Below, piece by piece: positions 3,579-17,520 of a stretch of DNA of 36,295 bases; position 1 is the first letter of the stretch; the number at the start of each line of letters is the position of its first letter. The notes beneath the pieces were generated by a model that saw nothing but the letters and a program-made list of their open reading frames with translations, had not been told where the DNA came from and did not search any database. Made by a program: the position numbers and the translations under genes. Origin of the DNA: Patescibacteria group bacterium. Lineage in GTDB: Bacteria > Patescibacteriota > Minisyncoccia > UBA6257 > Colwellbacteraceae. The DNA lies in contig JAHJZF010000050.1 in assembly GCA_018826645.1 (NCBI GenBank), forward strand, positions 1-36,295. Reading direction: 5' to 3'.

Positions 3579-4435
3579 TGTATTTAGACGAAAAAGAACA
3601 AAAATTTTTACAGGAGACTGCTAATAAAATTAGGAGGAAGATTATTGATATTCTTGAAGATGCTGGAAGTGGTCATTCTGCTGGTTCTCTTGGAATGGCA
3701 GACGTCTTTACCGCGCTCTATTTCCATATTCTTAAACACGATCCTAAGAACCCAAGCTGGGAAGAGAGAGATCGATTGGTGCTTTCGAATGGTCATATAG
3801 CGCCTGTTCAATATGTTACGATGGCCTACGCTGGATATTTACCAGTAAAGGAACTGAAGACATTAAGAAAGCTTCATTCTCGTCTACAGGGGCATCCTCA
3901 TCGAGAGGCGTTGCCTGGCATAGAGACTACTTCTGGTCCTCTTGGCGCCGGTCTTTCGCAGGCGGCCGGCATGGCACTGGCTGCGAGATTAGATGGTAGA
4001 AAGCATAGAATCTATTGTTTAATGTCTGATGGAGAACAGCAAGAGGGGTTAATTTGGGAGGCATCCATGTTTATTGGCAATAATAAGCTCTCGAACATTA
4101 CGGCCATTATGGATAGAAATAACATCCAAATAGATGGTTCTACGGAAAACGTGATGCCCCTCGAGCCCCTTAAAGAAAAGTATGAGGCTTTTGGATGGCA
4201 TGTTTTAGATATAGACGGTCACGATATAGAGCAGATAGTAGACGCGACCAACGAAGCGAAAGCAATTACATATCAGCCGACCCTCATAGTCGCCCATACA
4301 ATCCCGGGGAAGGGCGTGAGTTTTATGGAAGGGGATTTTGGGTGGCACGGTAAAGCGCCAACAAGATCGCAAGAACAAAAAGCGTTGGCAGAACTTCGGA
4401 CTATGAAGGGTAAGATTAAATCAGAACACGAATAA
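3578..4435 (+). CDS. tkt: transketolase, N-terminal (TPP/PP-binding) subunit of a split enzyme
   Basis: GSGHSAGSLG, LSNGH and the GDG-type box CLMSDGEQQEG. 285 aa, followed directly by the C-terminal subunit. Confidence 0.9.
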   Translation: MYLDEKEQKFLQETANKIRRKIIDILEDAGSGHSAGSLGMADVFTALYFHILKHDPKNPSWEERDRLVLSNGHIAPVQYVTMAYAGYLPVKELKTLRKLHSRLQGHPHREALPGIETTSGPLGAGLSQAAGMALAARLDGRKHRIYCLMSDGEQQEGLIWEASMFIGNNKLSNITAIMDRNNIQIDGSTENVMPLEPLKEKYEAFGWHVLDIDGHDIEQIVDATNEAKAITYQPTLIVAHTIPGKGVSFMEGDFGWHGKAPTRSQEQKALAELRTMKGKIKSEHE

Positions 4436-4436
4436 T

Positions 4437-5435
4437 ATGTTTAATAGAGGGCAAAAATTAAATAAAAAACTTTTTAATAAAAATATTGAAAAAGCATCTC
4501 TTCGAGATGGTTATGGAGAAGGATTGGTTCTCGCCGGTGAAAAACATGATAGCGTAGTAGCGCTTTGTGCGGATTTAACAGAATCTACACGCACTAACGC
4601 TTTTGCGGAAAAATTTCCTGAAAGATATTTTGAGATAGGGGTTGCTGAACAAAATATGGCAGGCATAGCCGCTGGTTTAGGCGTGTCAGGTAAAATTCCA
4701 TTTATGGCGTCTTACGCTACTTTCTCGCCGGGCAGGAATTGGGAGCAGATTAGAACAAATATTTCATATAACAATTCCAACGTTAAGATTGCTGGACATC
4801 ACGCTGGCGTAAGTGTCGGTCCGGACGGAGCTACTCATCAGGCCATCGAAGACATCGCCACCATGAGAGTGATGGCTAATATGAGAGTTATCGTTCCCTG
4901 CGATATTAATGAAGCGCGCAAAGCAACCGTTGTCGCTTCGGAGGTGTGGGGGCCGACGTATTTGAGGTTCACCAAAGAAGAGACACCGGTTATTACATCT
5001 TCAGAGACACCTTTTCAGCCCGGAAAGGCAGAAATTTTCTGGGAATCTAAAAGTCCGCGATGTGCAATTATTGCTTGTGGACCCTTGGTTTATAATACAA
5101 TGCTTGCTGCCAAAGAGCTTGAGGGCGAGGGGATAGATACAATTGTGGTCAATAACCACACTATAAAGCCGATGGACAATGCCCTGATTCTTAGCGTAGC
5201 TAAACGTTGCGGAGCCGTAGTAACAGTTGAAGAACATCAAGTTGAAGGAGGTATGGGGAGTGCGGTAGCAGAAGTTTTATCTAGCAATTTGCCGACACCC
5301 CAAGAGTTTATTGGAGTGTCGGGTGTTTTTGGAGAGTCTGGAACACCTGATGAATTAATTGATAAATATGGCATGGCGGTTAAAGATATTAAGTCAGCGG
5401 TCAAAAAAGTTATTAAAAGAAAAAATGGGCACTAA
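4437..5435 (+). CDS. tkt: transketolase, C-terminal (pyrimidine-binding plus C-terminal domain) subunit
   Basis: FEIGVAEQNMAGIAAGL, GPDGATHQAIEDIA and VEEHQVEGGMGSAV blocks. 332 aa. Confidence 0.9.
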   Translation: MFNRGQKLNKKLFNKNIEKASLRDGYGEGLVLAGEKHDSVVALCADLTESTRTNAFAEKFPERYFEIGVAEQNMAGIAAGLGVSGKIPFMASYATFSPGRNWEQIRTNISYNNSNVKIAGHHAGVSVGPDGATHQAIEDIATMRVMANMRVIVPCDINEARKATVVASEVWGPTYLRFTKEETPVITSSETPFQPGKAEIFWESKSPRCAIIACGPLVYNTMLAAKELEGEGIDTIVVNNHTIKPMDNALILSVAKRCGAVVTVEEHQVEGGMGSAVAEVLSSNLPTPQEFIGVSGVFGESGTPDELIDKYGMAVKDIKSAVKKVIKRKNGH

Positions 5436-7998: not shown

Positions 7999-9438
7999 AT
8001 GAGACCCAGACCCCGCCTTTTAGTAGACATAAAGAGGGGGTGGAGGGTTGATGTTTTTACCCCGCGGTCGGGGCGCGTCAACTTAAGCCCTATATCTAAA
8101 ACCAGAGAGAGAAGACCTCTGTTAAAACCAGTTTTGGGAGTGTTGGCCACTATTGGCTTTGTTCTTATGGCTAATGGTTCAGCCTTTGCTCCGATAGGGG
8201 GAGGAGTGAGAGCTTTGACCATAGAGCAGGAGCGTGAACAACTTGAAGGCCAGCTTCAAAAATTAGAACAAGAGGCAAAACAATACGAGCAGACTATTAC
8301 TGAGTATCGAAAAAAAGGGAATACCCTACAGTCTGAGATAGATCGTCTTAATGCTCGGATTGCTAATATTAATGGCCAAATTGGCACGATTACATCCTCT
8401 CTTAATAAATTAACTGGCCAAATTAAAACGACCAGTTCAAGAATAGAAGAGGTCCAAGGGAAAATAGGACGCAGCAAAGATAGTCTTTCAGAAGTCGTTC
8501 AGAGGATGAGTCGAGATGAAGAGAAGGGTGTTTTGGAGATTCTCCTTACCAATCAAAACCTCTCAGATTTCTTTACAAGCGTGAATGACCTTCTGGTGAT
8601 TCAAGACAGTCTAAAGGAATCTATTATGAACTTAGATCAATTTAGAGAAGAACTTATTACGCAAAAAGAGATTCTTGCGCTTGAGAGATCTGACATAGAA
8701 GCATTGCGTCTTTATCAGGTAAGGCAGAAGCAAGAGGTGGACTCTGTAAAATCTGATAAAAACAACTTGCTGGCTGTTACCAAAGGAGAAGAAGCCGTGT
8801 ACCAACAATTATTAAACATAACAGAGCAAACAGCCGCAGAAATTAGGGCTAGAATCTTCCGTCTTTTGGGTGGTGGACAAATGACGTTCGAAGAAGCTTA
8901 TAAATTTGCGAGCTACGTCGAAAAAAGAACGGGCGTGAGAGCGGCTTTGATATTGGCCGTATTAGATAGAGAATCTGCTTTAGGTAGAAATGTGGGGCAG
9001 TGTAATTATAAAACGGCCATGGCGCCTGGTCCGCCTGAGTCTAGCCGAGACGACATTACGCCTTTCTTACAAATTACTAAGGCTCTTAATTTGGACCCAG
9101 ACAAGACATTAGTCTCGTGTCCGATAGTGGCCGATGGTTATTATGGCGGAGCGATGGGTCCGTCTCAGTTTATCCCTAGCACTTGGGTAGGATATCAAGC
9201 ACGTATCGAAGCGGTAACTGGCAACAGGCCAGCCAGCCCGTGGAATAATTTAGATGCCTTCGTTGCTACGGGCCTTTATTTGAAAGATTCTGGAGCAGCT
9301 TCAAACGAGCTTGCCGCCGCCGCTCGTTACTACTGTGGAGGAAATTGGCAGAGGTATGTCTGTACGAACGTCTATGGAAAAGCCGTGATAGAAAGAGCCA
9401 CTGATTTTGAGAGAGACATCAAGATTCTCGGGGGCTAA
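7999..9438 (+). CDS. membrane-anchored coiled-coil protein with C-terminal lytic-transglycosylase-like domain
   Basis: Arg-rich N-terminus, TM/signal segment VLGVLATIGFVLMANGSAFA, then about 200 aa of heptad-like coiled coil. The C-terminal block LAVLDRESALG...GGAMGPSQFIPSTW resembles SLT/MltB-type transglycosylases. Confidence 0.6.
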   Translation: MRPRPRLLVDIKRGWRVDVFTPRSGRVNLSPISKTRERRPLLKPVLGVLATIGFVLMANGSAFAPIGGGVRALTIEQEREQLEGQLQKLEQEAKQYEQTITEYRKKGNTLQSEIDRLNARIANINGQIGTITSSLNKLTGQIKTTSSRIEEVQGKIGRSKDSLSEVVQRMSRDEEKGVLEILLTNQNLSDFFTSVNDLLVIQDSLKESIMNLDQFREELITQKEILALERSDIEALRLYQVRQKQEVDSVKSDKNNLLAVTKGEEAVYQQLLNITEQTAAEIRARIFRLLGGGQMTFEEAYKFASYVEKRTGVRAALILAVLDRESALGRNVGQCNYKTAMAPGPPESSRDDITPFLQITKALNLDPDKTLVSCPIVADGYYGGAMGPSQFIPSTWVGYQARIEAVTGNRPASPWNNLDAFVATGLYLKDSGAASNELAAAARYYCGGNWQRYVCTNVYGKAVIERATDFERDIKILGG

Positions 9439-10225: not shown

Positions 10226-10579
10226 TTACTTAGATACCTTTTTAAGGGCCTTCTTTCCGCCGGAGGCGGATCCGCCTTTGGCGGAAGGTTTTCTGACGGG
10301 TTTGGCTTCTTCAACTTCAGCTGTTTTAGGCTTCTTTTTAGGGGAAGGCTTGCTCTTGGCAGAAGCTTTTGTGAGCTCTGCTTTAGCTCTGCGCGCCTTG
10401 AATTTCTCAACCCTACCAGCGGTATCGATAAGCTTCTCTTGACCTGTAAAGAAAGGGTGACAGGCGCTACATATCTCTACTTTCATTTCTTCATGAGTTG
10501 AGCCAATTTCATGTACTTTTCCGCATGAACAAACGATTTTCGCAGTTGTATAGTATTGTGGGTGTATATTCTTTTTCAT
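10226..10579 (-). CDS. rpmE: 50S ribosomal protein L31 with about 50-aa Lys/Ala/Pro-rich C-terminal extension
   Basis: [10 protein letters not shown]...CSCG...[10 protein letters not shown] is the canonical zinc-type L31. 117 aa versus the usual length of about 70. Confidence 0.9.
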
Positions 10580-10836
10580 CCCGTTAGAGACAGGGAGCGC
10601 TTTAACCTATTTCTAAGATAGCGTTTTCCCATGCCTGATTTTAGATATTTTTCTCTTGACCTTGAATCTTGTTCGTTTGTACAAGCCTCGTAATAGATTA
10701 GCTCAAAGGGTCCTCGATCCTTTGTGGAAGCCACCTTTCCAGACACATGTTCTTTAAAGCGCTTCCGTAAATCTACCGTAGAGCCAGTATACCAGTTCCC
10801 GTCCTTTTTGCTAAGAAGTACATATGTGTAATACAT
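10576..10836 (-). CDS. small GIY-YIG nuclease family protein (UPF0213-like)
   Basis: YYTYVLLS...[16 protein letters not shown]...E...KYLK matches the GIY-(10-11)-YxG, R, E core of GIY-YIG domains. 86 aa. The TGA stop overlaps the rpmE ATG (ATGA). Confidence 0.85.
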
Positions 10837-10854
10837 AGTGGTCTCTAACGGGAT
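10578..10854 (-). repeat. inverted-repeat-bounded element carrying the GIY-YIG ORF (arms 10578-10591 and 10841-10854)
   Basis: ATCCCGTTAGAGAC at 10578-10591 and its exact reverse complement GTCTCTAACGGGAT at 10841-10854. Confidence 0.7.
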
Positions 10855-12671: not shown

Positions 12672-12710
12672 CCCATCTCTCTCTTACACTTCGTGTGCGA
12701 GAGAGATGGG
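12672..12710. repeat. 12-bp perfect inverted repeat with nested 4-bp stem at the right edge of the high-GC insert (terminator-like, no U-tract)
   Basis: CCCATCTCTCTC (12672-12683) and GAGAGAGATGGG (12699-12710). The loop contains ACAC-TTC-GTGT. Confidence 0.75.
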
Positions 12711-12801
12711 GCCTACGATTAAACTCTTGAAAATAAAGCGTCAAGGGTTTAAATGTGGGTATTCGAACTCACAAAAGGTTAAAAATAAATACAAAAAACA
12801 A

Positions 12802-15249
12802 ATGACTAATTTGTTAAAAGGTCAAAGAAAAGGATTGGTAGCCATTGTAACTGGTTTATTTGTGGCAGCTAACTTAGCGTTACCGTTGGTTAGTACCGTT
12901 TTTGCCGCTGCTGTCTTTAACCAGGGCTCTCAACCCTACGATTTTCTAAGAATAGGAAGCTCTAGCAACCAAGGAGGAACCTATAACTGGCAAAATCGAA
13001 ACATAAACGCTGAACTTGGTGATACAGTTGCCGCTGTCTTGTTTTTCAACAATACCGGTGACGATAGAGCCAATCGTTCTAAAGTGAGGATATATCCGAC
13101 TATTTCACCTGATGGTCGCAAAGTTAACATCAGGGGTTATGTTTGGGCGAATAATGCTCCTCAGAAAGCCGAAACAGTGGTTGTTAATCTGACTGGTGAT
13201 GGGAAGATTACAAACGTAGATCATCTTGCTACCGTTCAGACTACTCACTGGAATCCAGTACACGAAGTTCCTCTCTCGGGCAACCCAGAGGACGTACTTG
13301 ATAGTAGCGGTCTTTCAGTCGGGAATATTAATCCTGGTGAGAGAAATGCTGGTTTCATCGTAGTTAGTTTTAGAATTAACGGCGATGACGACCCGGAAAC
13401 AGGCGATAAACCAGAAGTAACAACCGTTTCTGCTAATAATGTAGATACAGATAGCGCTGTCTTGCGTTGTGACGTTGATGCTAATGGTGCCGATACAGAT
13501 GTTTGGTTCAAATGGAGTGACAACAGAAGCGATTTAGAAAATAAAACCGCCAATGTTTCTGTCGCTGCAAATAAAACCAACGAAAGAGTAACTAAGACCA
13601 TCACTGGTCTTGATGAAGATACAAAGTATTACTTCCGTTGTGCTGGTAAAAACAGTGAAGGAGGTAATTTGGGTAGTATCTTAGAGTTCACCACAAACGA
13701 TGGTGGAAATTCAGGCGACGCACCAGAAGCAACAACCGTCTCCGCTACTAATGTAGACGAAGATAGTGCAACTTTGCGTTGTGATGTTGATGCCAACGGC
13801 GACGACACTGATGTTTGGTTTGAATGGGGCGACAGTAGCAGTAACCTCGATGAGGATACTTCTACGGTAAATGTCGACGGTAGTGAGACTAACGAGAGAA
13901 TAGATAAAACTATCTCTGGTCTTGATGAAGACACCAAGTATTACTTTCGCTGTGTTGCCAGAAATGGCGAAGGCACAGATAGGGGTAGTATCTTGAACTT
14001 CACCACAGACGATAATGGCGGTGGATCAGGCGACAAGCCAAGTGCTACCACGTTATCTGCTACAAACATTGACGAAGATAGTGCCACCTTGCGTTGTGAG
14101 GTTGACACTAATGGCGATGACGCCGACGTCTGGTTTGAATGGGGCGAAGACAACGATCTTGATGAAAAGACTTCGAAGATTAGTGTTCAAGATGGAGAGA
14201 CTAATAAAACGGTCACAAAAACCATTACTGGTCTCGACGAGGATACTAAGTATTACTTCCGTTGTTTGATAGAAGATGATGGTGGTGAAGAGGACACAGG
14301 TTCCACCAGGAACTTCACTACTGACGACAATGGTAGAAGTTCATCTAATGATGCGCCTGACGTAACTACCTTAGCTCCAACAGGAGTTGGACAGAATGAG
14401 GCTACTTTGGAGGGTGATGTAGATACCAATGGAGACGACACTGATGTGTGGTTTGAGTGGGGTACTGGCATTAATAGCCTTAACAGAGAGACCCCTCGTG
14501 ACGATGTGGGCGATAACGATAATATCGATTTCGACTACAGAGTTACTGGTCTTGCCCAAAACACCACTTACTACTACCGTGCCGTGGCTAGAAACAGCGA
14601 GGGTACTGATTACGGTTATGTTAGAAGCTTCAGAACTGGAGCTCCGATAGTAAACGTGATTACCCGAGTTGTTGAAGTCTTTAGGACGGTTGAAGTAGAA
14701 GAGGAGCCAGAAGTACAAGCTCTCATAATTACCCTTGACGCTGATAGACGAGGTGCCGAGGATAGTCGCGAGATTGATTACACCGTTTCTTATGACAACC
14801 GCACTAGTGAAACTTTCACTAATGCGCAGTTGGTAGTCGATCTCCCTCGTGATCTTAACTTCATTGACGCTAGTCCTAGAGAGGACAACGAAAGAAGCGA
14901 TGTGCTGACGTTTACTATCGGCACCATCAAACCCGGACAGAATGACTCTTTCGTTATTACCACCGATGTGGACGACAGTGTTGACGTAAATGACACAGTC
15001 CGTTTCGTGGCCGACGTCGAATACACAGACAGTGGTACCCAGAAGCTCGTGACCGTTATTGACGAACACACTTTTGGTGAACTTGTCAGTGGTAGAGTTG
15101 GTGGAACTTTTACCGCCTTGCTTATAGACAGCTTGCGTAATTTTTTCACCAGTCCGATATTATGGCTGATTCTTTTGGCCATGCTTGTCTACTTCGCGAT
15201 TCGCTACTTTGTTGCTGGACGCGACAAGAGGTCTGCCGTACTAGTGTAA
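12802..15249 (+). CDS. large cell-surface protein: signal peptide, N-terminal beta-rich domain, four FN3-like repeats, DUF11-like domain, C-terminal TM anchor
   Basis: MTNLLKGQRKGLVAIVTGLFVAANLALPLVSTVFA looks like a signal peptide. I prefer the ATG at 12802 over the ORF-track start at 12706, which lies inside the hairpin. There are four repeats of about 105 aa (..TT.SAT.VDEDSATLRCDVDANGDDTDVWFEWG...GLDEDTKYYFRC..). The DUF11-like block is LVVDLPRDLNFIDASP...TFTIGTIKPGQNDSFVITT. The C-terminal anchor is ILWLILLAMLVYFAIRYFVAGRDKR. Confidence 0.85.
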   Translation: MTNLLKGQRKGLVAIVTGLFVAANLALPLVSTVFAAAVFNQGSQPYDFLRIGSSSNQGGTYNWQNRNINAELGDTVAAVLFFNNTGDDRANRSKVRIYPTISPDGRKVNIRGYVWANNAPQKAETVVVNLTGDGKITNVDHLATVQTTHWNPVHEVPLSGNPEDVLDSSGLSVGNINPGERNAGFIVVSFRINGDDDPETGDKPEVTTVSANNVDTDSAVLRCDVDANGADTDVWFKWSDNRSDLENKTANVSVAANKTNERVTKTITGLDEDTKYYFRCAGKNSEGGNLGSILEFTTNDGGNSGDAPEATTVSATNVDEDSATLRCDVDANGDDTDVWFEWGDSSSNLDEDTSTVNVDGSETNERIDKTISGLDEDTKYYFRCVARNGEGTDRGSILNFTTDDNGGGSGDKPSATTLSATNIDEDSATLRCEVDTNGDDADVWFEWGEDNDLDEKTSKISVQDGETNKTVTKTITGLDEDTKYYFRCLIEDDGGEEDTGSTRNFTTDDNGRSSSNDAPDVTTLAPTGVGQNEATLEGDVDTNGDDTDVWFEWGTGINSLNRETPRDDVGDNDNIDFDYRVTGLAQNTTYYYRAVARNSEGTDYGYVRSFRTGAPIVNVITRVVEVFRTVEVEEEPEVQALIITLDADRRGAEDSREIDYTVSYDNRTSETFTNAQLVVDLPRDLNFIDASPREDNERSDVLTFTIGTIKPGQNDSFVITTDVDDSVDVNDTVRFVADVEYTDSGTQKLVTVIDEHTFGELVSGRVGGTFTALLIDSLRNFFTSPILWLILLAMLVYFAIRYFVAGRDKRSAVLV
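13402..14646 (+). repeat. four tandem coding repeats with periods of 312, 315 and 321 nt (FN3-like modules)
   Basis: Repeat starts at 13402, 13714, 14029 and 14350. The first three are clearly similar at DNA level (ccagaag.aacaaccgt.tc.gcta.taatgtaga...gatgtttggtt.gaatgg). The fourth is more diverged. Confidence 0.85.
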
Positions 15250-15303: not shown

Positions 15304-15340
15304 AACAAGAAAAGCCCCCATTACGGGGGCTTTTCTTGTT
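15304..15340 (+). terminator. rho-independent terminator after the surface-protein gene
   Basis: Perfect 16-bp stem AACAAGAAAAGCCCCC / GGGGGCTTTTCTTGTT with 5-nt loop. The 3' arm is T-rich. Confidence 0.8.
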
Positions 15341-15366
15341 GGAGTTAACCCACAAAGAGTCCTTGA

Positions 15367-15437
15367 CCCCGTTAGAGACCGCCCTCAACTTATGTTGACG
15401 GCTACGATCGTCTAGGGGTGCCCTGTCTCTAACGGGG
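15367..15437 (+). repeat. ORF-less hairpin doublet of the CCCGTTAGAGAC repeat family
   Basis: CCCCGTTAGAGAC (15367-15379), 45-nt spacer, GTCTCTAACGGGG (15425-15437). It shares the 13-mer CCCGTTAGAGACC and the 16-mer CCCTGTCTCTAACGGG with the GIY-YIG element read on the minus strand. Confidence 0.8.
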
Positions 15438-15465
15438 TTGACGGCAGATATTCGACTCATATAAT
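15438..15465 (+). promoter_or_regulatory. near-consensus sigma70 promoter of the 16S rRNA gene
   Basis: TTGACG (15438-15443), 16-nt spacer, TATAAT (15460-15465), about 240 nt upstream of the mature 16S 5' end. Confidence 0.6.
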
Positions 15466-15701: not shown

Positions 15702-17290
15702 AATTAGGAGGATTTGATCCTGGTCCAGGATGAACGCTGGCGGCGTGGATAAGGCATGCAAGTTGAGCGCTGTATTTTCAATTGACCAAACCTTCGGGCG
15801 AGGTCGCCGAAAATACGGAGCGGCAAACGAGTTAGTAACACCTTGGTATCTACCCCATACTCAGGAATAAGCCATCGAAAGATGGTCTAATACCTGATAG
15901 TCCCCGCTTTCGCTTTTCGTTTCACGAAAAGCTACAGCGGGCAAGCCGCAAGGCCTGCCCACCGTAGCTCCTAGTGGAGCGCAGAGCGAAGGTGGGGTAA
16001 AACTTTTGTGGTATGGGAGGAGCCTAGGCCCGATCAGCTAGATGGTGTGGTAATGGCGCACCATGGCTATGACCGGTAGGGGAGGTGAGAGCCTGACCCC
16101 CAACGACGGAACTGAGACACGGTCCGTACACCTACGGGTGGCCGCAGTCGAGAATATTCCACAATGGGCGAAAGCCTGATGGAGCGACGCCGCGTGCAGG
16201 AAGACGGCCTTCGGGTTGTAAACTGCTTTTCTAGGGGAAAAATATTGATGGTACCTTAGGAATAAGGAGTGGCTAAATTCGTGCCAGCAGCAGCGGTAAT
16301 ACGAATACTCCAAGCGTTATCCGAATTTATTGGGCGTAAAGCGTACGTAGGGGGCTTGATGCGTCTACTGTTAAATCTCACCGCCCAACGGTGAGGCCGC
16401 AGTAGATACGGTCAGGCTAGAGAATGCGAGAGGTCTGTGGAACGCACGGTGTAGGGGTGGTATCCGTTGATATCGTGCGGAACACCAAAGGCGAAGGCAG
16501 CAGACTGGCGTATTTCTGACCCTGAGGTACGAAAGCGTGGGTAGCGAACGGGATTAGATACCCCGGTAGTCCACGCCGTAAACTATGTTGACTAGCTGTT
16601 TCGAGTATCGACCCTCGGAGTGGCGCAGCTAACGCGTTAAGTCAACCGCCTGGGAAGTACGACCGCAAGGTTAAAACTCAAAGGAATAGACGGGGGCTCG
16701 CACAAGCGGAGGAACATGAGGTTTAATTCGATACTAAGCGAGGAACCTTACCTAGGCTTGACACCTAGACGAACGCCAGCCGAAAGGCAGGCTTCTGGAT
16801 TTATTCAGCGGCTAGGCAGGTGCTGCATGGTTGCCGTCAGCTCGTGTCTTGAGATGTACCATTAAGTTGGGAAACGAGCGCAACCCTCATCATCAGTTAC
16901 AAGTGTCTGATGAAACTGCCCTGATTCACAGGGAGGAAGGAGAGGATGACGTCAAATCAGCATGGCCCTTTGATGCCTAGGGCTACACTCATGTTACAAT
17001 GGCCGATACAAAGGGTTGCAAAGGAGTGATCCCAAGCTAATCCCATAAAGTCGGCCCCAGTTCGGATTGGAGGCTGCAACTCGCCTCCATGAAGTCGGAT
17101 TCGCTAGTAATCGCGCATCAGCTATGGCGCGGTGAATACGTTCCCGAGCCTTGTACTCACCGCCCGTCACGTCAAGGGAGCCGGGGACACCTGAAGCTTT
17201 AATTAATTTGAAGTTAGGGTGAATTCGGTGACATGGACGAAGTCGTAACAAGGCACGCGTAGCGGAAGCTGTGCGTGGAACAATTAAACT
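15702..17290 (+). rRNA. rrs: 16S ribosomal RNA, about 1.59 kb, with an expanded V2 region and no anti-SD tail
   Basis: 5' end ggaggatttgatcctggtccaggatgaacgctggcggcg. Internal universal blocks: gtgccagcagcagcggtaatac, ggattagataccccggtagtcc, aaactcaaaggaatagacggg, gcatggttgccgtcagctcgtg, ccgcccgtcac. 3' end gaagtcgtaacaaggcacgcgtagcggaagctgtgcgtggaacaattaaact. Confidence 0.95.
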
Positions 17291-17334
17291 TTGAGAATAG
17301 GTCCCCGACCTTAATCGGGGAGATATTGATCGAG

Positions 17335-17397
17335 CCCCGTTACATACGGGGCAAGCTCCGAAACTATTCGTGGAAAATCTGCGGGTATGTAACGGGG
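17335..17397 (+). repeat. variant hairpin doublet (CCCCGTTACATAC / GTATGTAACGGGG) in the 16S trailer
   Basis: Perfect 13-nt arms at 17335-17347 and 17385-17397 with a 37-nt spacer. It has the same CCCCGTTA..AC core as the 10.6-kb and 15.4-kb copies, with three compensated substitutions. Confidence 0.75.
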
Positions 17398-17520
17398 CGA
17401 GGAGTCTTTAAGTCTCGATTATCTGATTTCAACATCAGATTACTAATGACCTATTACCGAGGAGGCCCGCCACTGGCGGGTAAAGCTTGGGGCAACTAAA
17501 AAGTAAAATTACCTATATAA

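What the first reader, a model, noticed from the sequence alone, without database searches (positions are those of the whole stretch)
15367..15437. Miniature ORF-less copy of the GIY-YIG element abutting the rRNA promoter
What the sequence shows:
- CCCCGTTAGAGAC, a 45-nt spacer, then GTCTCTAACGGGG.
- Identity to the GIY-YIG element extends asymmetrically beyond the palindromic core. The 13-mer CCCGTTAGAGACC is shared on the 5' side and the 16-mer CCCTGTCTCTAACGGG on the 3' side, when the GIY-YIG copy is read on the minus strand.
- The right arm ends one base before the -35 TTGACG of the 16S promoter.

Interpretation: the asymmetric identity means the two loci are oriented homologous copies, not independent palindromes. 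This copy looks like a MITE/REPIN-like deletion derivative retaining only the ends. Its position may insulate the promoter from, or couple it to, upstream transcription.
Basis: seen in the sequence. Interest (0 to 1): 0.6.

Follow-up and report, generated by a model that had tools for sequence, protein, structure and literature searches.

The report
Miniature GIY-YIG-family mobile element at 16S promoter
The 71-base palindrome-ended unit in front of the 16S rRNA promoter is a gene-less copy of a tiny mobile DNA element whose full form carries only a small GIY-YIG nuclease gene; it landed on the first four bases of the promoter's -35 box and rebuilt that box behind itself, so it is most likely a passenger, not a regulator.

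Summary
The arms are at 15367-15379 and 15425-15437, 45 nt apart, and the right arm is flush with TTGACG-16-TATAAT. The unit is flanked by a direct TTGA repeat.

It belongs to a family of 63-128-nt inverted-repeat elements. The arms match those around the 86-codon GIY-YIG gene at 10578-10854, and around about 70 of 80 homologues from many phyla.

- Identical 4-nt flanks occur in 52 of 108 elements (15 expected).
- Three sibling copies have clean empty sites in a same-genus genome, including the closest relative of this copy and the second hairpin at 17335-17397.
- A second arm family in this genome also pairs a GIY-YIG gene with minis.
- One mini in another genome is a plain internal deletion of its full-length neighbour.

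At the 16S site itself the relative shows only a decayed stretch, so this copy is probably old. I found no evidence for an insulating role; a separate terminator lies upstream.

No DDE, rve or Y1 transposase was found. That the GIY-YIG nuclease moves the element is inferred.

The closest published system is Ssn/NTS (PMC11893778), but its SRM motif is absent. This scan has reported the same family, including the -35 seat, on other genomes.

The parts
15363..15366 (+). Left copy of the 4-bp target-site duplication TTGA
   Evidence: Read directly. Family-wide test of identical 4-nt flanks: 52 of 108 against 15.0 expected.
15367..15379 (+). Left terminal inverted repeat CCCCGTTAGAGAC
   Evidence: The same arm flanks GIY-YIG genes in about 70 of 80 loci from many phyla.
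15380..15424 (+). 45-nt interior without an ORF: hairpin 1 at 15381-15402, junction CTACGA, and a weak 4-bp hairpin at 15414-15424 abutting the right arm
   Evidence: DNA fold. The architecture is shared with minis of other genera. A hairpin next to one arm is enriched in the family: 17 of 42 against 0.93 expected.
15425..15437 (+). Right terminal inverted repeat GTCTCTAACGGGG. It is preceded by CCCT, which it shares with the 3' end of the GIY-YIG ORF.
15438..15441 (+). Right copy of the target duplication TTGA, which is also the first four bases of the -35 hexamer
   Evidence: Sibling copies on C28 and C27 have a single TTGACA at the empty site in G002.
15438..15465 (+). 16S rRNA promoter: -35 TTGACG (15438-15443), 16-nt spacer, -10 TATAAT (15460-15465)
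   Evidence: 11 of 12 matches. Both boxes are conserved in the same-genus genome G002.
15304..15340 (.). Perfect 16-bp GC-cored hairpin flanked by A and T runs; terminator-like end of the upstream surface-protein gene (12706-15249)
   Evidence: I12. Conserved in G002. Only terminator-type Rfam near-hits fall here. The simple terminator scan did not flag it.
15702..17290 (+). 16S rRNA gene
   Evidence: Rfam RF00177, 1406 bits.
17331..17401 (+). Second miniature element in the 16S trailer: arms CCCCGTTACATAC / GTATGTAACGGGG (17335-17397), with target duplication CGAG at 17331-17334 and 17398-17401
   Evidence: A clean empty site with a single CGAG is present in G002.
10578..10854 (-). Full-length element with arms ATCCCGTTAGAGAC and its complement GTCTCTAACGGGAT. 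It encloses an 86-codon GIY-YIG ORF (10576-10836, minus strand) whose stop TGA overlaps the ATG of rpmE.
   Evidence: Pfam PF01541 E=1.5e-16. The downstream ORF is ribosomal protein L31.

Best explanation
The unit at 15367-15437 is a non-autonomous, ORF-less member of a family of very small mobile elements. The elements have terminal inverted repeats that begin YCCCG. The full-length form, about 275 bp, carries a single 80-95-residue, single-domain GIY-YIG nuclease gene. One full-length copy with the same arms lies 4.5 kb away, at 10578-10854.

The element inserted at the tetranucleotide TTGA that begins the -35 hexamer of the 16S rRNA promoter and duplicated it. The hexamer TTGACG is therefore rebuilt immediately after the right arm, and the promoter keeps working.

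**Shown:**
- terminal inverted repeats;
- a 4-bp target duplication;
- multiple copies;
- cognate arms between the minis and the GIY-YIG copies;
- empty sites for sibling copies in a congener;
- covariation between the two arms of each element.

**Inferred:**
- The arms pair as a hairpin or cruciform on single-stranded DNA.
- The GIY-YIG nuclease supplied in trans makes the cuts, by analogy with the hairpin-directed ssDNA nuclease SsnA.
- A 4-nt staggered target cut is filled in by the host.
- At this site the element is a near-neutral passenger. It pushes upstream DNA 75 bp away from the -35 box and does not act as a regulator.
For: **Family and arms.**
- Family members sit at seven places in this 0.59-Mb genome (C2 twice, C3, C22, C28, the C45/C35 tandem array, and a decayed copy on C46), plus an arm variant on C43, all sharing CCCCGTTA ends.
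- About 70 of 80 GIY-YIG homologues (67-79% identity, many phyla) are flanked by the same arms in the same register.

**Target duplication.**
- Identical 4-nt flanks occur in 52 of 108 non-redundant elements against 15.0 expected; among minis, 22 of 39 against 4.1. No shuffle out of 5000 reached the observed count.

**Empty sites in the same-genus genome G002.**
- The C28 mini is 79% identical to this copy by my count on A1; G002 has a single TTGACA there.
- The C27 mini has a single TTGACA in G002.
- The mini at window 17335-17397 has a single CGAG in G002.

**Second arm family.**
- The GIY-YIG gene at C16:12903-13194 has arms ATCCCCACACCTAAT. A mini at C5:1881-1965 shares 15 of 15 arm bases, and C27 carries a related one.

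**Other support.**
- Arm positions 9-13 are complementary within an element in 94 of 109 cases, against 24.4 under shuffled pairing.
- The L108 mini shares its first ~75 nt with the adjacent full element.
- Among the 60 relatives, minis are commoner in genomes with a close GIY-YIG homologue: 5 of 7 against 8 of 53, Fisher P=0.004. Kin are not independent.
- No DDE_Tnp_1, rve or Y1_Tnp match was found in the 91%-complete genome.
- The promoter boxes are conserved in G002, where no intact element is present.
Against: - No movement was observed and no enzyme activity was tested, so the GIY-YIG nuclease as the mover is inference. No published GIY-YIG enzyme is known to make a 4-bp duplication.
- For this particular copy G002 gives no clean empty site. 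It has 29-40 nt of decayed or unrelated sequence, so insertion here rests on the TTGA repeat and on sibling copies.
- The full-length copy in the window has no matching flanks (TTTA against TGAA).
- Eight of the 13 relatives with minis lack a close GIY-YIG homologue.
- The genome is 91% complete, so an unassembled transposase cannot be excluded.
Confidence: 0.8

Rival explanations
1. Ssn-type reading. The hairpin repeats are above all recognition sites for a site-specific ssDNA nuclease that restricts or shapes incoming or recombining single-stranded DNA, as NTS/SsnA does in Neisseria. On this reading the repeats spread by some other route, and the nuclease is not a transposase. The 71-nt unit is still a repeat cognate to the GIY-YIG gene, but its meaning is genome-defence or recombination control.
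For: - The protein is a single-domain GIY-YIG of 86 aa, like SsnA (94 aa; PMC11893778).
- The gene lies between cognate repeats, and ORF-less cognate repeats are dispersed in the genome.
- The paper itself notes the IS-like layout of NTS-ssnA-NTS.
Against: - The published SRM search motif gives 1 hit in this genome (0-4 by chance) and none near any GIY-YIG gene.
- The arms are long-range partners, not self-contained hairpins on each side of the gene.
- Copy number is about ten, not hundreds.
- Target duplications and fresh insertions since the split from a congener show that the repeats themselves move.
- The nearest solved relatives are UPF0213 proteins. Membership of cd10448 could not be tested.
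Confidence: 0.2
2. Reverse derivation. A palindromic repeat family existed first, and the GIY-YIG gene is a homing passenger that inserted into the loop of one repeat. The mini would then be the ancestral form, not a derivative.
For: - Minis have their own conserved two-hairpin interior, which is not recognisably ORF-derived.
- Orphan minis occur in genomes without a close GIY-YIG homologue.
Against: - In about 70 of 80 loci from many phyla the ORF sits in the same register between the arms: the left arm 0-13 nt before the ATG in nearly all, the right arm covering the last codons.
- Three paralogues in this genome each have their own covarying arms.
- The L108 mini retains the first ~75 nt of the full element, including the start of the ORF.
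- Minis keep the CCT of the ORF's 3' end next to the right arm.
Confidence: 0.08
3. Host regulatory module. The palindrome is part of the rRNA promoter, acting as an UP-element, an operator for a transcription factor, or an insulator or terminator against read-through from the surface-protein gene.
For: - Copies lie immediately upstream of 16S, rpoB, grpE-dnaK and, as a decayed copy, rpsL.
- Five of 7 TTGA-flanked minis abut a promoter-like site, against 6% of intergenic TTGA words.
Against: - The enrichment shrinks to P=0.006 against the five-letter word TTGAC, of which 21% of intergenic occurrences are promoter-like.
- G002 has the same promoters without the element at two sites, and an intact 16S promoter next to a decayed stretch.
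- Flanking duplications differ from copy to copy.
- The same arms flank a nuclease gene in many phyla.
- The arm is GC-rich, unlike an UP element, and has no T-run. A separate terminator-like hairpin lies at 15304-15340.
Confidence: 0.05
4. Structured small RNA gene or RNA-processing signal: stems that bracket RNAs for nuclease processing.
For: - The fold is strong.
- The copy at 17335-17397 lies inside the 16S trailer.
- Similar stems enclose tRNA genes on C43 and C52.
Against: - The copy in question lies upstream of the -35 box and after the terminator, so it is probably not transcribed.
- There is no Rfam match.
- The trailer copy is absent from G002 with a clean empty site.
- Both strands fold equally well, as expected for a DNA palindrome.
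Confidence: 0.03

Closest known systems
Ssn nucleases with NTS/SRM hairpin repeats (Neisseria meningitidis SsnA; Chenal et al., Nat Commun 2025, PMC11893778)
   Same: - The nuclease is a single-domain GIY-YIG protein of about 90 aa.
- Its gene lies between cognate repeats.
- ORF-less cognate repeats are dispersed in the genome.
- The repeats form hairpins.
- The authors themselves note the IS-like layout.
   Different: - Here the two flanks are complementary to each other (13-21-nt terminal inverted repeats); they are not separate 20-50-nt hairpins.
- The published SRM motif is absent.
- Copies carry 4-bp target duplications and have empty sites in a congener, neither of which that paper reports.
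- Copy number is about ten, not hundreds.
- The nearest solved relatives are UPF0213 proteins. Membership of cd10448 was not testable.
Bacterial MITEs and their parent insertion sequences (for example Correia/NEMIS elements of Neisseria)
   Same: - Short, ORF-less elements with terminal inverted repeats and a target duplication.
- Several copies, with cognate ends on an ORF-bearing element.
- Insertion close to genes and promoters, and a hairpin-forming sequence.
   Different: - The parent element carries no DDE, serine or tyrosine transposase, only a GIY-YIG nuclease.
- The parent is about 275 bp, far below any insertion sequence I know of.
- The target is TNNA (TTGA, TGAA, TTTA), not TA.
- The two arms covary within an element, which points to a pairing constraint.
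REP/REPIN elements with RAYT (Y1 HUH transposase) genes
   Same: - A small nuclease-type gene is flanked by inverted copies of a repeat.
- That repeat also exists as ORF-less hairpin doublets of about 70-110 nt in the same genome.
- Several gene and repeat lineages coexist in one genome.
   Different: - No Y1_Tnp domain is present in the genome; the protein has an unrelated GIY-YIG fold.
- Target duplications are present here; as far as I know, REPINs are not described with them.
IS200/IS605 family
   Same: - A hairpin next to an element end.
- Probable single-strand intermediates.
- Very small elements.
   Different: - As I recall, IS200/IS605 elements have no terminal inverted repeats and make no target duplication, and they use a Y1 transposase.
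- No Y1_Tnp domain was found here, and both terminal inverted repeats and target duplications are present.

Membership tests
MITE (non-autonomous TIR element) | Terminal inverted repeats | tested here: met
   A 14-nt perfect inverted repeat at 15366-15379 / 15425-15438.
MITE (non-autonomous TIR element) | Target-site duplication | tested here: met
   TTGA on both sides. Family-wide, 52 of 108 elements have identical 4-nt flanks against 15.0 expected.
MITE (non-autonomous TIR element) | No coding capacity; small size | tested here: met
   The unit is 71 nt with a 45-nt interior. The only ORF overlapping it is a spurious 104-aa antisense frame.
MITE (non-autonomous TIR element) | ORF-bearing element with the same ends in the same genome | tested here: met
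   The element at 10578-10854 shares 13 of 13 arm bases plus asymmetric extensions. A second arm family shows the same gene/mini pairing.
MITE (non-autonomous TIR element) | Presence/absence polymorphism with a clean empty site | tested here: inconclusive
   Met for three sibling copies. For this copy G002 shows a decayed or unrelated 29-40-nt stretch, not a clean empty site.
MITE (non-autonomous TIR element) | Mobilisation in trans by the parent's enzyme | not testable with these tools
   This needs a mobilisation assay.
Ssn/SRM system (PMC11893778) | Single-domain GIY-YIG protein of about 90 aa | tested here: met
   86 aa; PF01541 covers residues 1-68, E=1.5e-16.
Ssn/SRM system (PMC11893778) | Membership of CDD cd10448 (GIY-YIG_unchar_3) | not testable with these tools
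   No CDD library is on hand. The best solved relatives are UPF0213 proteins BH0048 (E=3.7e-11) and EF2693.
Ssn/SRM system (PMC11893778) | SRM motif HGTCWYN(0-2)YYVSBRHN(0-5)WNVSBRGN(0-2)RNCYNB flanking the gene and enriched in the genome | tested here: not met
   One hit in the genome against 0-4 in shuffles; none within 500 nt of any GIY-YIG gene or of the finding.
Ssn/SRM system (PMC11893778) | Site-specific cleavage of ssDNA only | not testable with these tools
   This needs a biochemical assay.
REPIN/RAYT | Associated Y1 (HUH) RAYT transposase | tested here: not met
   PF01797 has no match in the genome.
IS200/IS605 | No TIR, no TSD, Y1 TnpA | tested here: not met
   A TIR and a TSD are present, and there is no Y1_Tnp.
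Intrinsic terminator or UP element of the rRNA promoter | GC stem followed by a T-run, or an A/T-rich block at -40 to -60, conserved with the promoter | tested here: not met
   No terminator-like site was called. The arm next to the -35 box is GC-rich. G002 keeps the promoter without an intact element.
Known RNA families (Rfam 15) | Match to a covariance model | tested here: not met
   There is no match over 15363-15441 at the gathering or E<=1 thresholds.

The most novel reading that the evidence does not exclude
The single-domain GIY-YIG nuclease is itself the transposase of a minimal class of bacterial mobile elements of about 275 bp, with terminal inverted repeats and a 4-bp duplication. 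The class would work through a hairpin formed by the two arms on single-stranded DNA. Its target word (TTGA-C or A-TGA-A) makes it land on -35 hexamers and start codons, which it rebuilds behind itself. That would let it colonise the most highly expressed genes of ultra-small genomes (16S rRNA, rpoB, rpmE, smpB, grpE) without harm.
Probability: 0.4. Interest if true: 0.8.

Novelty: new variant of a known kind. Interest (0 to 1): 0.55.

Why it matters
If the GIY-YIG nuclease does move these elements, they would be the smallest self-contained DNA transposons I know of. They would also use an enzyme fold not known to drive cut-and-paste or copy-and-paste transposition in bacteria.

Their habit of landing on the signals of gene expression (-35 boxes, start codons) and rebuilding them would explain how selfish DNA survives in 0.5-Mb genomes with almost no spare sequence.

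There is also a practical point for annotation. Palindromes glued to TTGAC boxes or start codons in CPR genomes should be read as element ends, not as operators, UP elements or leader structures.

For this window specifically, the 16S gene is bracketed by two such insertions. One of them arose after the split from a congener, which shows the family was recently active in this lineage.

Tried and rejected
- **Transcript evidence.** I therefore could not test whether the unit is transcribed or whether upstream transcription stops there.
- **Rfam.** Nothing matches the unit at gathering or E-value thresholds. The only hits are terminator-like near-matches to the hairpin at 15304-15340.
- **Empty site at the 16S promoter.** G002 aligns on both sides but has a 29-40-nt stretch between them that does not align. 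It keeps CTTG-CCCCGAT on the left and GGGTTGACG on the right. I read this as a probable decayed relic, which is not decisive. G001 gave no match.
- **Consensus fold.** RNAalifold on 12 minis recovered only the outer stem plus an odd inner pairing, because MAFFT did not put the sequence-divergent hairpins in register. I replaced it with a per-sequence test for a hairpin next to an arm.
- **SRM motif of the Ssn paper.** It was not found beyond chance.
- **Canonical transposases.** PF01609, PF00665 and PF01797 have no match. Other transposase families were not searched.
- **Nested tRNA on C43 as a spliced intron.**
  - ARAGORN with introns allowed did not call the outer tRNA.
  - No 4-bp duplication flanks the insert.
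  - The nested layout was not found in 40 relatives.
  - The 3' half of the outer tRNA resembles tRNA-Thr(CGU) of two relatives.
  - I left this as an observation.
- **Promoter seat as proof of targeting.** The 5 of 7 enrichment is strong against TTGA words (P=1.5e-5) but modest against TTGAC words (P=0.006), so the target word explains most of it.

Full report
**1. The observation**

CCCCGTTAGAGAC lies at 15367-15379 and its complement at 15425-15437, 45 nt apart. The perfect inverted repeat runs one base further on each side, to 14 nt.

This is more than chance would give. The 13-mer with up to two mismatches occurs six times in the window against 0.5 expected. As single-stranded DNA either strand folds with z = -5.5 or -6.6.

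The shared 13-mer CCCGTTAGAGACC and 16-mer CCCTGTCTCTAACGGG with the minus-strand GIY-YIG copy are both real.

The right arm is flush with TTGACG. With a 16-nt spacer and TATAAT this gives an 11-of-12 promoter match. The 16S gene starts at 15702.

**2. The family in this genome**

The assembly is 590,796 bp in 68 contigs and 91% complete. It holds further units with CCCCGTTAGAG... ends:
- C3:21048-21113, directly upstream of rpoB;
- C22:1100-1167, upstream of grpE-dnaK;
- C28:8915-8985;
- a tandem array with a 67-nt period at the ends of contigs C45 and C35;
- a decayed copy in front of rpsL on C46;
- arm variants at window 17335-17397 (in the 16S trailer) and on C43.

The genome has seven GIY-YIG paralogues. 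Three of them sit between inverted repeats with the same layout but different sequence:
- ATCCCGTTAGAGAC (window);
- ATCCCGATAGTGAT (C57);
- ATCCCCACACCTAATCAGTTT (C16).

The C16 arm recurs on ORF-less minis at C5:1881-1965 (15 of 15 bases) and, in related form, at C27:1170-1254. So two independent arm families each pair a nuclease gene with cognate minis.

**3. The family elsewhere**

The pattern CCCGTTAG...CTAACGGG with a 35-65-nt gap occurs in 13 of 60 related genomes, across several families of the order.

The nuclease has homologues of 67-79% identity in Patescibacteria, Omnitrophota, Thermodesulfobacteriota, Elusimicrobiota, Planctomycetota and others. About 70 of the 80 loci fetched carry the same arms in the same register: the left arm 0-13 nt before the ATG in nearly all, the right arm over the last codons (...LSLTG, then stop).

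Arm positions 9-13 vary between elements (GAGAT, GAGAC, GAGAA, GAAAC and so on). Within an element they are complementary in 94 of 109 cases, against 24.4 under shuffled pairing. That points to a pairing constraint or a copy mechanism, not only to protein recognition of a fixed end.

**4. The units are insertions**

- Over 108 non-redundant elements, the 4 nt left of YCCCG equal the 4 nt right of CGGGR in 52 cases. Shuffled pairing gives 15.0, and none of 5000 shuffles reached 52. Among minis alone the count is 22 of 39 against 4.1.
- The duplicated words are TGAA (22 of 24 preceded by A, so ATGAA, a start codon), TTTA (mostly followed by C) and TTGA (always followed by C).
- The same-genus genome G002 has clean empty sites for three copies. 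When the G000 flanks are joined with one duplicate removed, they align straight through the junction.
  - At the C28 mini, the closest relative of the copy in question (79% identical by my count on A1), G002 has a single TTGACA.
  - At the C27 mini of the other arm family, G002 again has a single TTGACA.
  - At window 17335-17397, G002 has a single CGAG.
- The grpE and rpoB copies are present in both species. Their arms are conserved and their interiors diverged.

**5. This particular copy**

At the 16S promoter, G002 aligns on both sides. The terminator hairpin and the promoter TTGACG...TATAAT are conserved. Between them it has 29-40 nt that do not align.

The left junction CTTG-CCCCGAT and the G-run before TTGACG suggest a decayed, internally deleted relic. 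I cannot call it either an empty site or a relic with confidence.

The copy is therefore probably older than the G000/G002 split. Its status as an insertion rests on its own TTGA repeat and on its siblings.

Its interior is a hairpin (15381-15402), the junction CTACGA, and a weak 4-bp hairpin abutting the right arm. This follows an architecture shared with minis in other genera, with different hairpin sequences. A perfect hairpin of 6 bp or more within 4 nt of one arm occurs in 17 of 42 minis, against 0.93 expected.

So this is not a fresh deletion product of the neighbouring GIY-YIG copy. It belongs to an established mini lineage. Minis do arise by internal deletion: L108 shows it, where a 121-nt mini next to a full element shares that element's first ~75 nt, including the start of the ORF. 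The CCCT shared here with the 3' end of the ORF fits the same origin.

**6. Why it sits at the -35 box**

Five of seven TTGA-flanked minis in this genome abut a site that passes the promoter rule. Only 6% of intergenic TTGA words do (P=1.5e-5).

Measured against the five-letter word TTGAC, 21% of intergenic occurrences are promoter-like, and P is 0.006. The target word plus survival in intergenic DNA therefore explains most of the seat. Some extra preference for promoters is possible but not shown.

Because the duplicated TTGA is the start of the hexamer, the -35 box is rebuilt after the element. The start-codon copies do the same...GGGATGAAA rebuilds the ATG of rpmE and smpB.

I found nothing to support an insulating or coupling role. 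The upstream gene ends in its own 16-bp hairpin at 15304-15340. The arm has no T-run, and the promoter is conserved in a genome without an intact element.

**7. Mechanism**

Shown:
- terminal inverted repeats;
- a 4-bp duplication;
- covarying arms;
- cognate nuclease genes;
- recent insertions;
- no match to DDE_Tnp_1, rve or Y1_Tnp in the genome.

Inferred:
- the arms pair on single-stranded DNA;
- the GIY-YIG nuclease recognises that structure and cuts;
- the target is opened with a 4-nt stagger and filled in.

The inference leans on SsnA of Neisseria, a 94-aa single-domain GIY-YIG enzyme. It binds a hairpin repeat and cuts only single-stranded DNA upstream of it. Its gene is flanked by its own repeats (PMC11893778).

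Membership of that family is not established. The SRM motif is absent, the arms are long-range partners and not local hairpins, and the nearest solved relatives are UPF0213 proteins.

Among the 60 relatives, minis are commoner where a close homologue of the nuclease exists: 5 of 7 against 8 of 53, Fisher P=0.004. Kin are not independent. Orphan minis also exist.

**8. Literature and earlier notes**

Full-text searches found no description of a bacterial GIY-YIG element with terminal inverted repeats and target duplications.

A survey of insertions in CPR rRNA genes noted GIY-YIG ORFs in insertions that are neither group I nor group II introns and that do not look like homing (PMC11270868).

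This scan has already described the same family on other genomes and on this window's GIY-YIG copy. Those notes include the start-codon seat and the -35 seat. I re-derived the points used here from the sequences. They agree.

**9. Verdict**

The regulatory suggestion is not.

The finding is a further member of a family that appears undescribed in print but is no longer new to this scan.

Noticed in passing
L006 (G000:C43) 3715-3935, minus strand: A complete tRNA-Met(CAT) gene (3795-3869) sits between arms CCCCGTTATTCAC and GTGAATAACGGGG. The whole block lies inside the anticodon loop of a second tRNA-like gene, whose halves are at about 3893-3930 and 3723-3770. No 4-bp duplication flanks the block. 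ARAGORN with introns allowed does not call the outer tRNA. The nested layout was not found in 40 relatives.
   Followed up: partly
L006 (G000:C43) 3918-4050, minus strand: A 55-nt promoter-like segment is duplicated (4050-3996 and 3972-3918). The first copy is followed by a tRNA remnant hairpin, GCCGGCGTGGCACTTTATTTGCGTCGGCG.
   Followed up: no
L005 (G000:C45) 5196-5385 and L004 (G000:C35) 2063-2168: A mini is amplified as a tandem array with a 67-nt period that runs off two contig ends, so the contigs are probably joined by the array. Internal junctions read CTCTGGGTTGACCCCG. They lack the AACG of the right arm but keep TTGAC.
   Followed up: no
G000:C52 4657-4819: tRNA-Arg(TCG) at 4732-4804 is enclosed by a 12-nt inverted repeat, TTTTTACCCCGT and ACGGGGTAAAAA. 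A further TTTTACGGGG lies inside. It resembles the element ends.
   Followed up: no
G000:C47 4437-4534 and G000:C3 13091-13188: There is another mini family of about 98 nt, with arms ACCCCGCTCTCTAAGC and ATCCCGCCCTCT. The interiors are AT-rich and homologous, and both copies have GCTCAA beyond one end.
   Followed up: no
G000:C6 7778-7847 and 23617-23699: Two 13-nt inverted repeats are made of T-arm-like sequence (GATTCGAACC... and GGGATTCGAACCT...), although ARAGORN calls no tRNA gene on that contig.
   Followed up: no
L003 (G000:C28) about 8700-8860, minus strand: Downstream of the TTGACA that the C28 mini landed on lies a stretch almost identical in G002, with a long hairpin ACGACGTTCGCGTTGTGG...CCACAACGCGACCGTCGT. 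It has no credible ORF and no Rfam match, so it may be an unannotated small RNA.
   Followed up: partly
L004 (G000:C35) 226-855: There is a match to bacterial RNase P RNA class A over 630 nt, against a model length of 367. It scores 46 bits, below the gathering score of 100, with E=5.4e-12. This suggests an RNase P RNA gene with large insertions.
   Followed up: no
G000:C15 7022-7823 and G000:C16 11719-13194: GIY-YIG paralogues cluster next to RNA genes. Two lie just downstream of a tRNA-Met, and two bracket the smpB-tmRNA pair. Four of the seven paralogues have no recognisable inverted arms.
   Followed up: no
L031-L110: The 86-aa nuclease has homologues of 67-79% identity in very distant phyla and in one Woesearchaeota MAG. 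This implies frequent horizontal transfer of the element.
   Followed up: partly
L017 (G002:C1) 1500-1566 and G000:C3 21048-21113: These are orthologous minis upstream of rpoB in two species of one genus. They keep 16-17-nt perfect arms while their interiors have diverged almost beyond alignment. The TTGAC after the element lies only about 33 nt before the rpoB ATG, which would imply a leaderless or near-leaderless mRNA if that promoter is used.
   Followed up: partly
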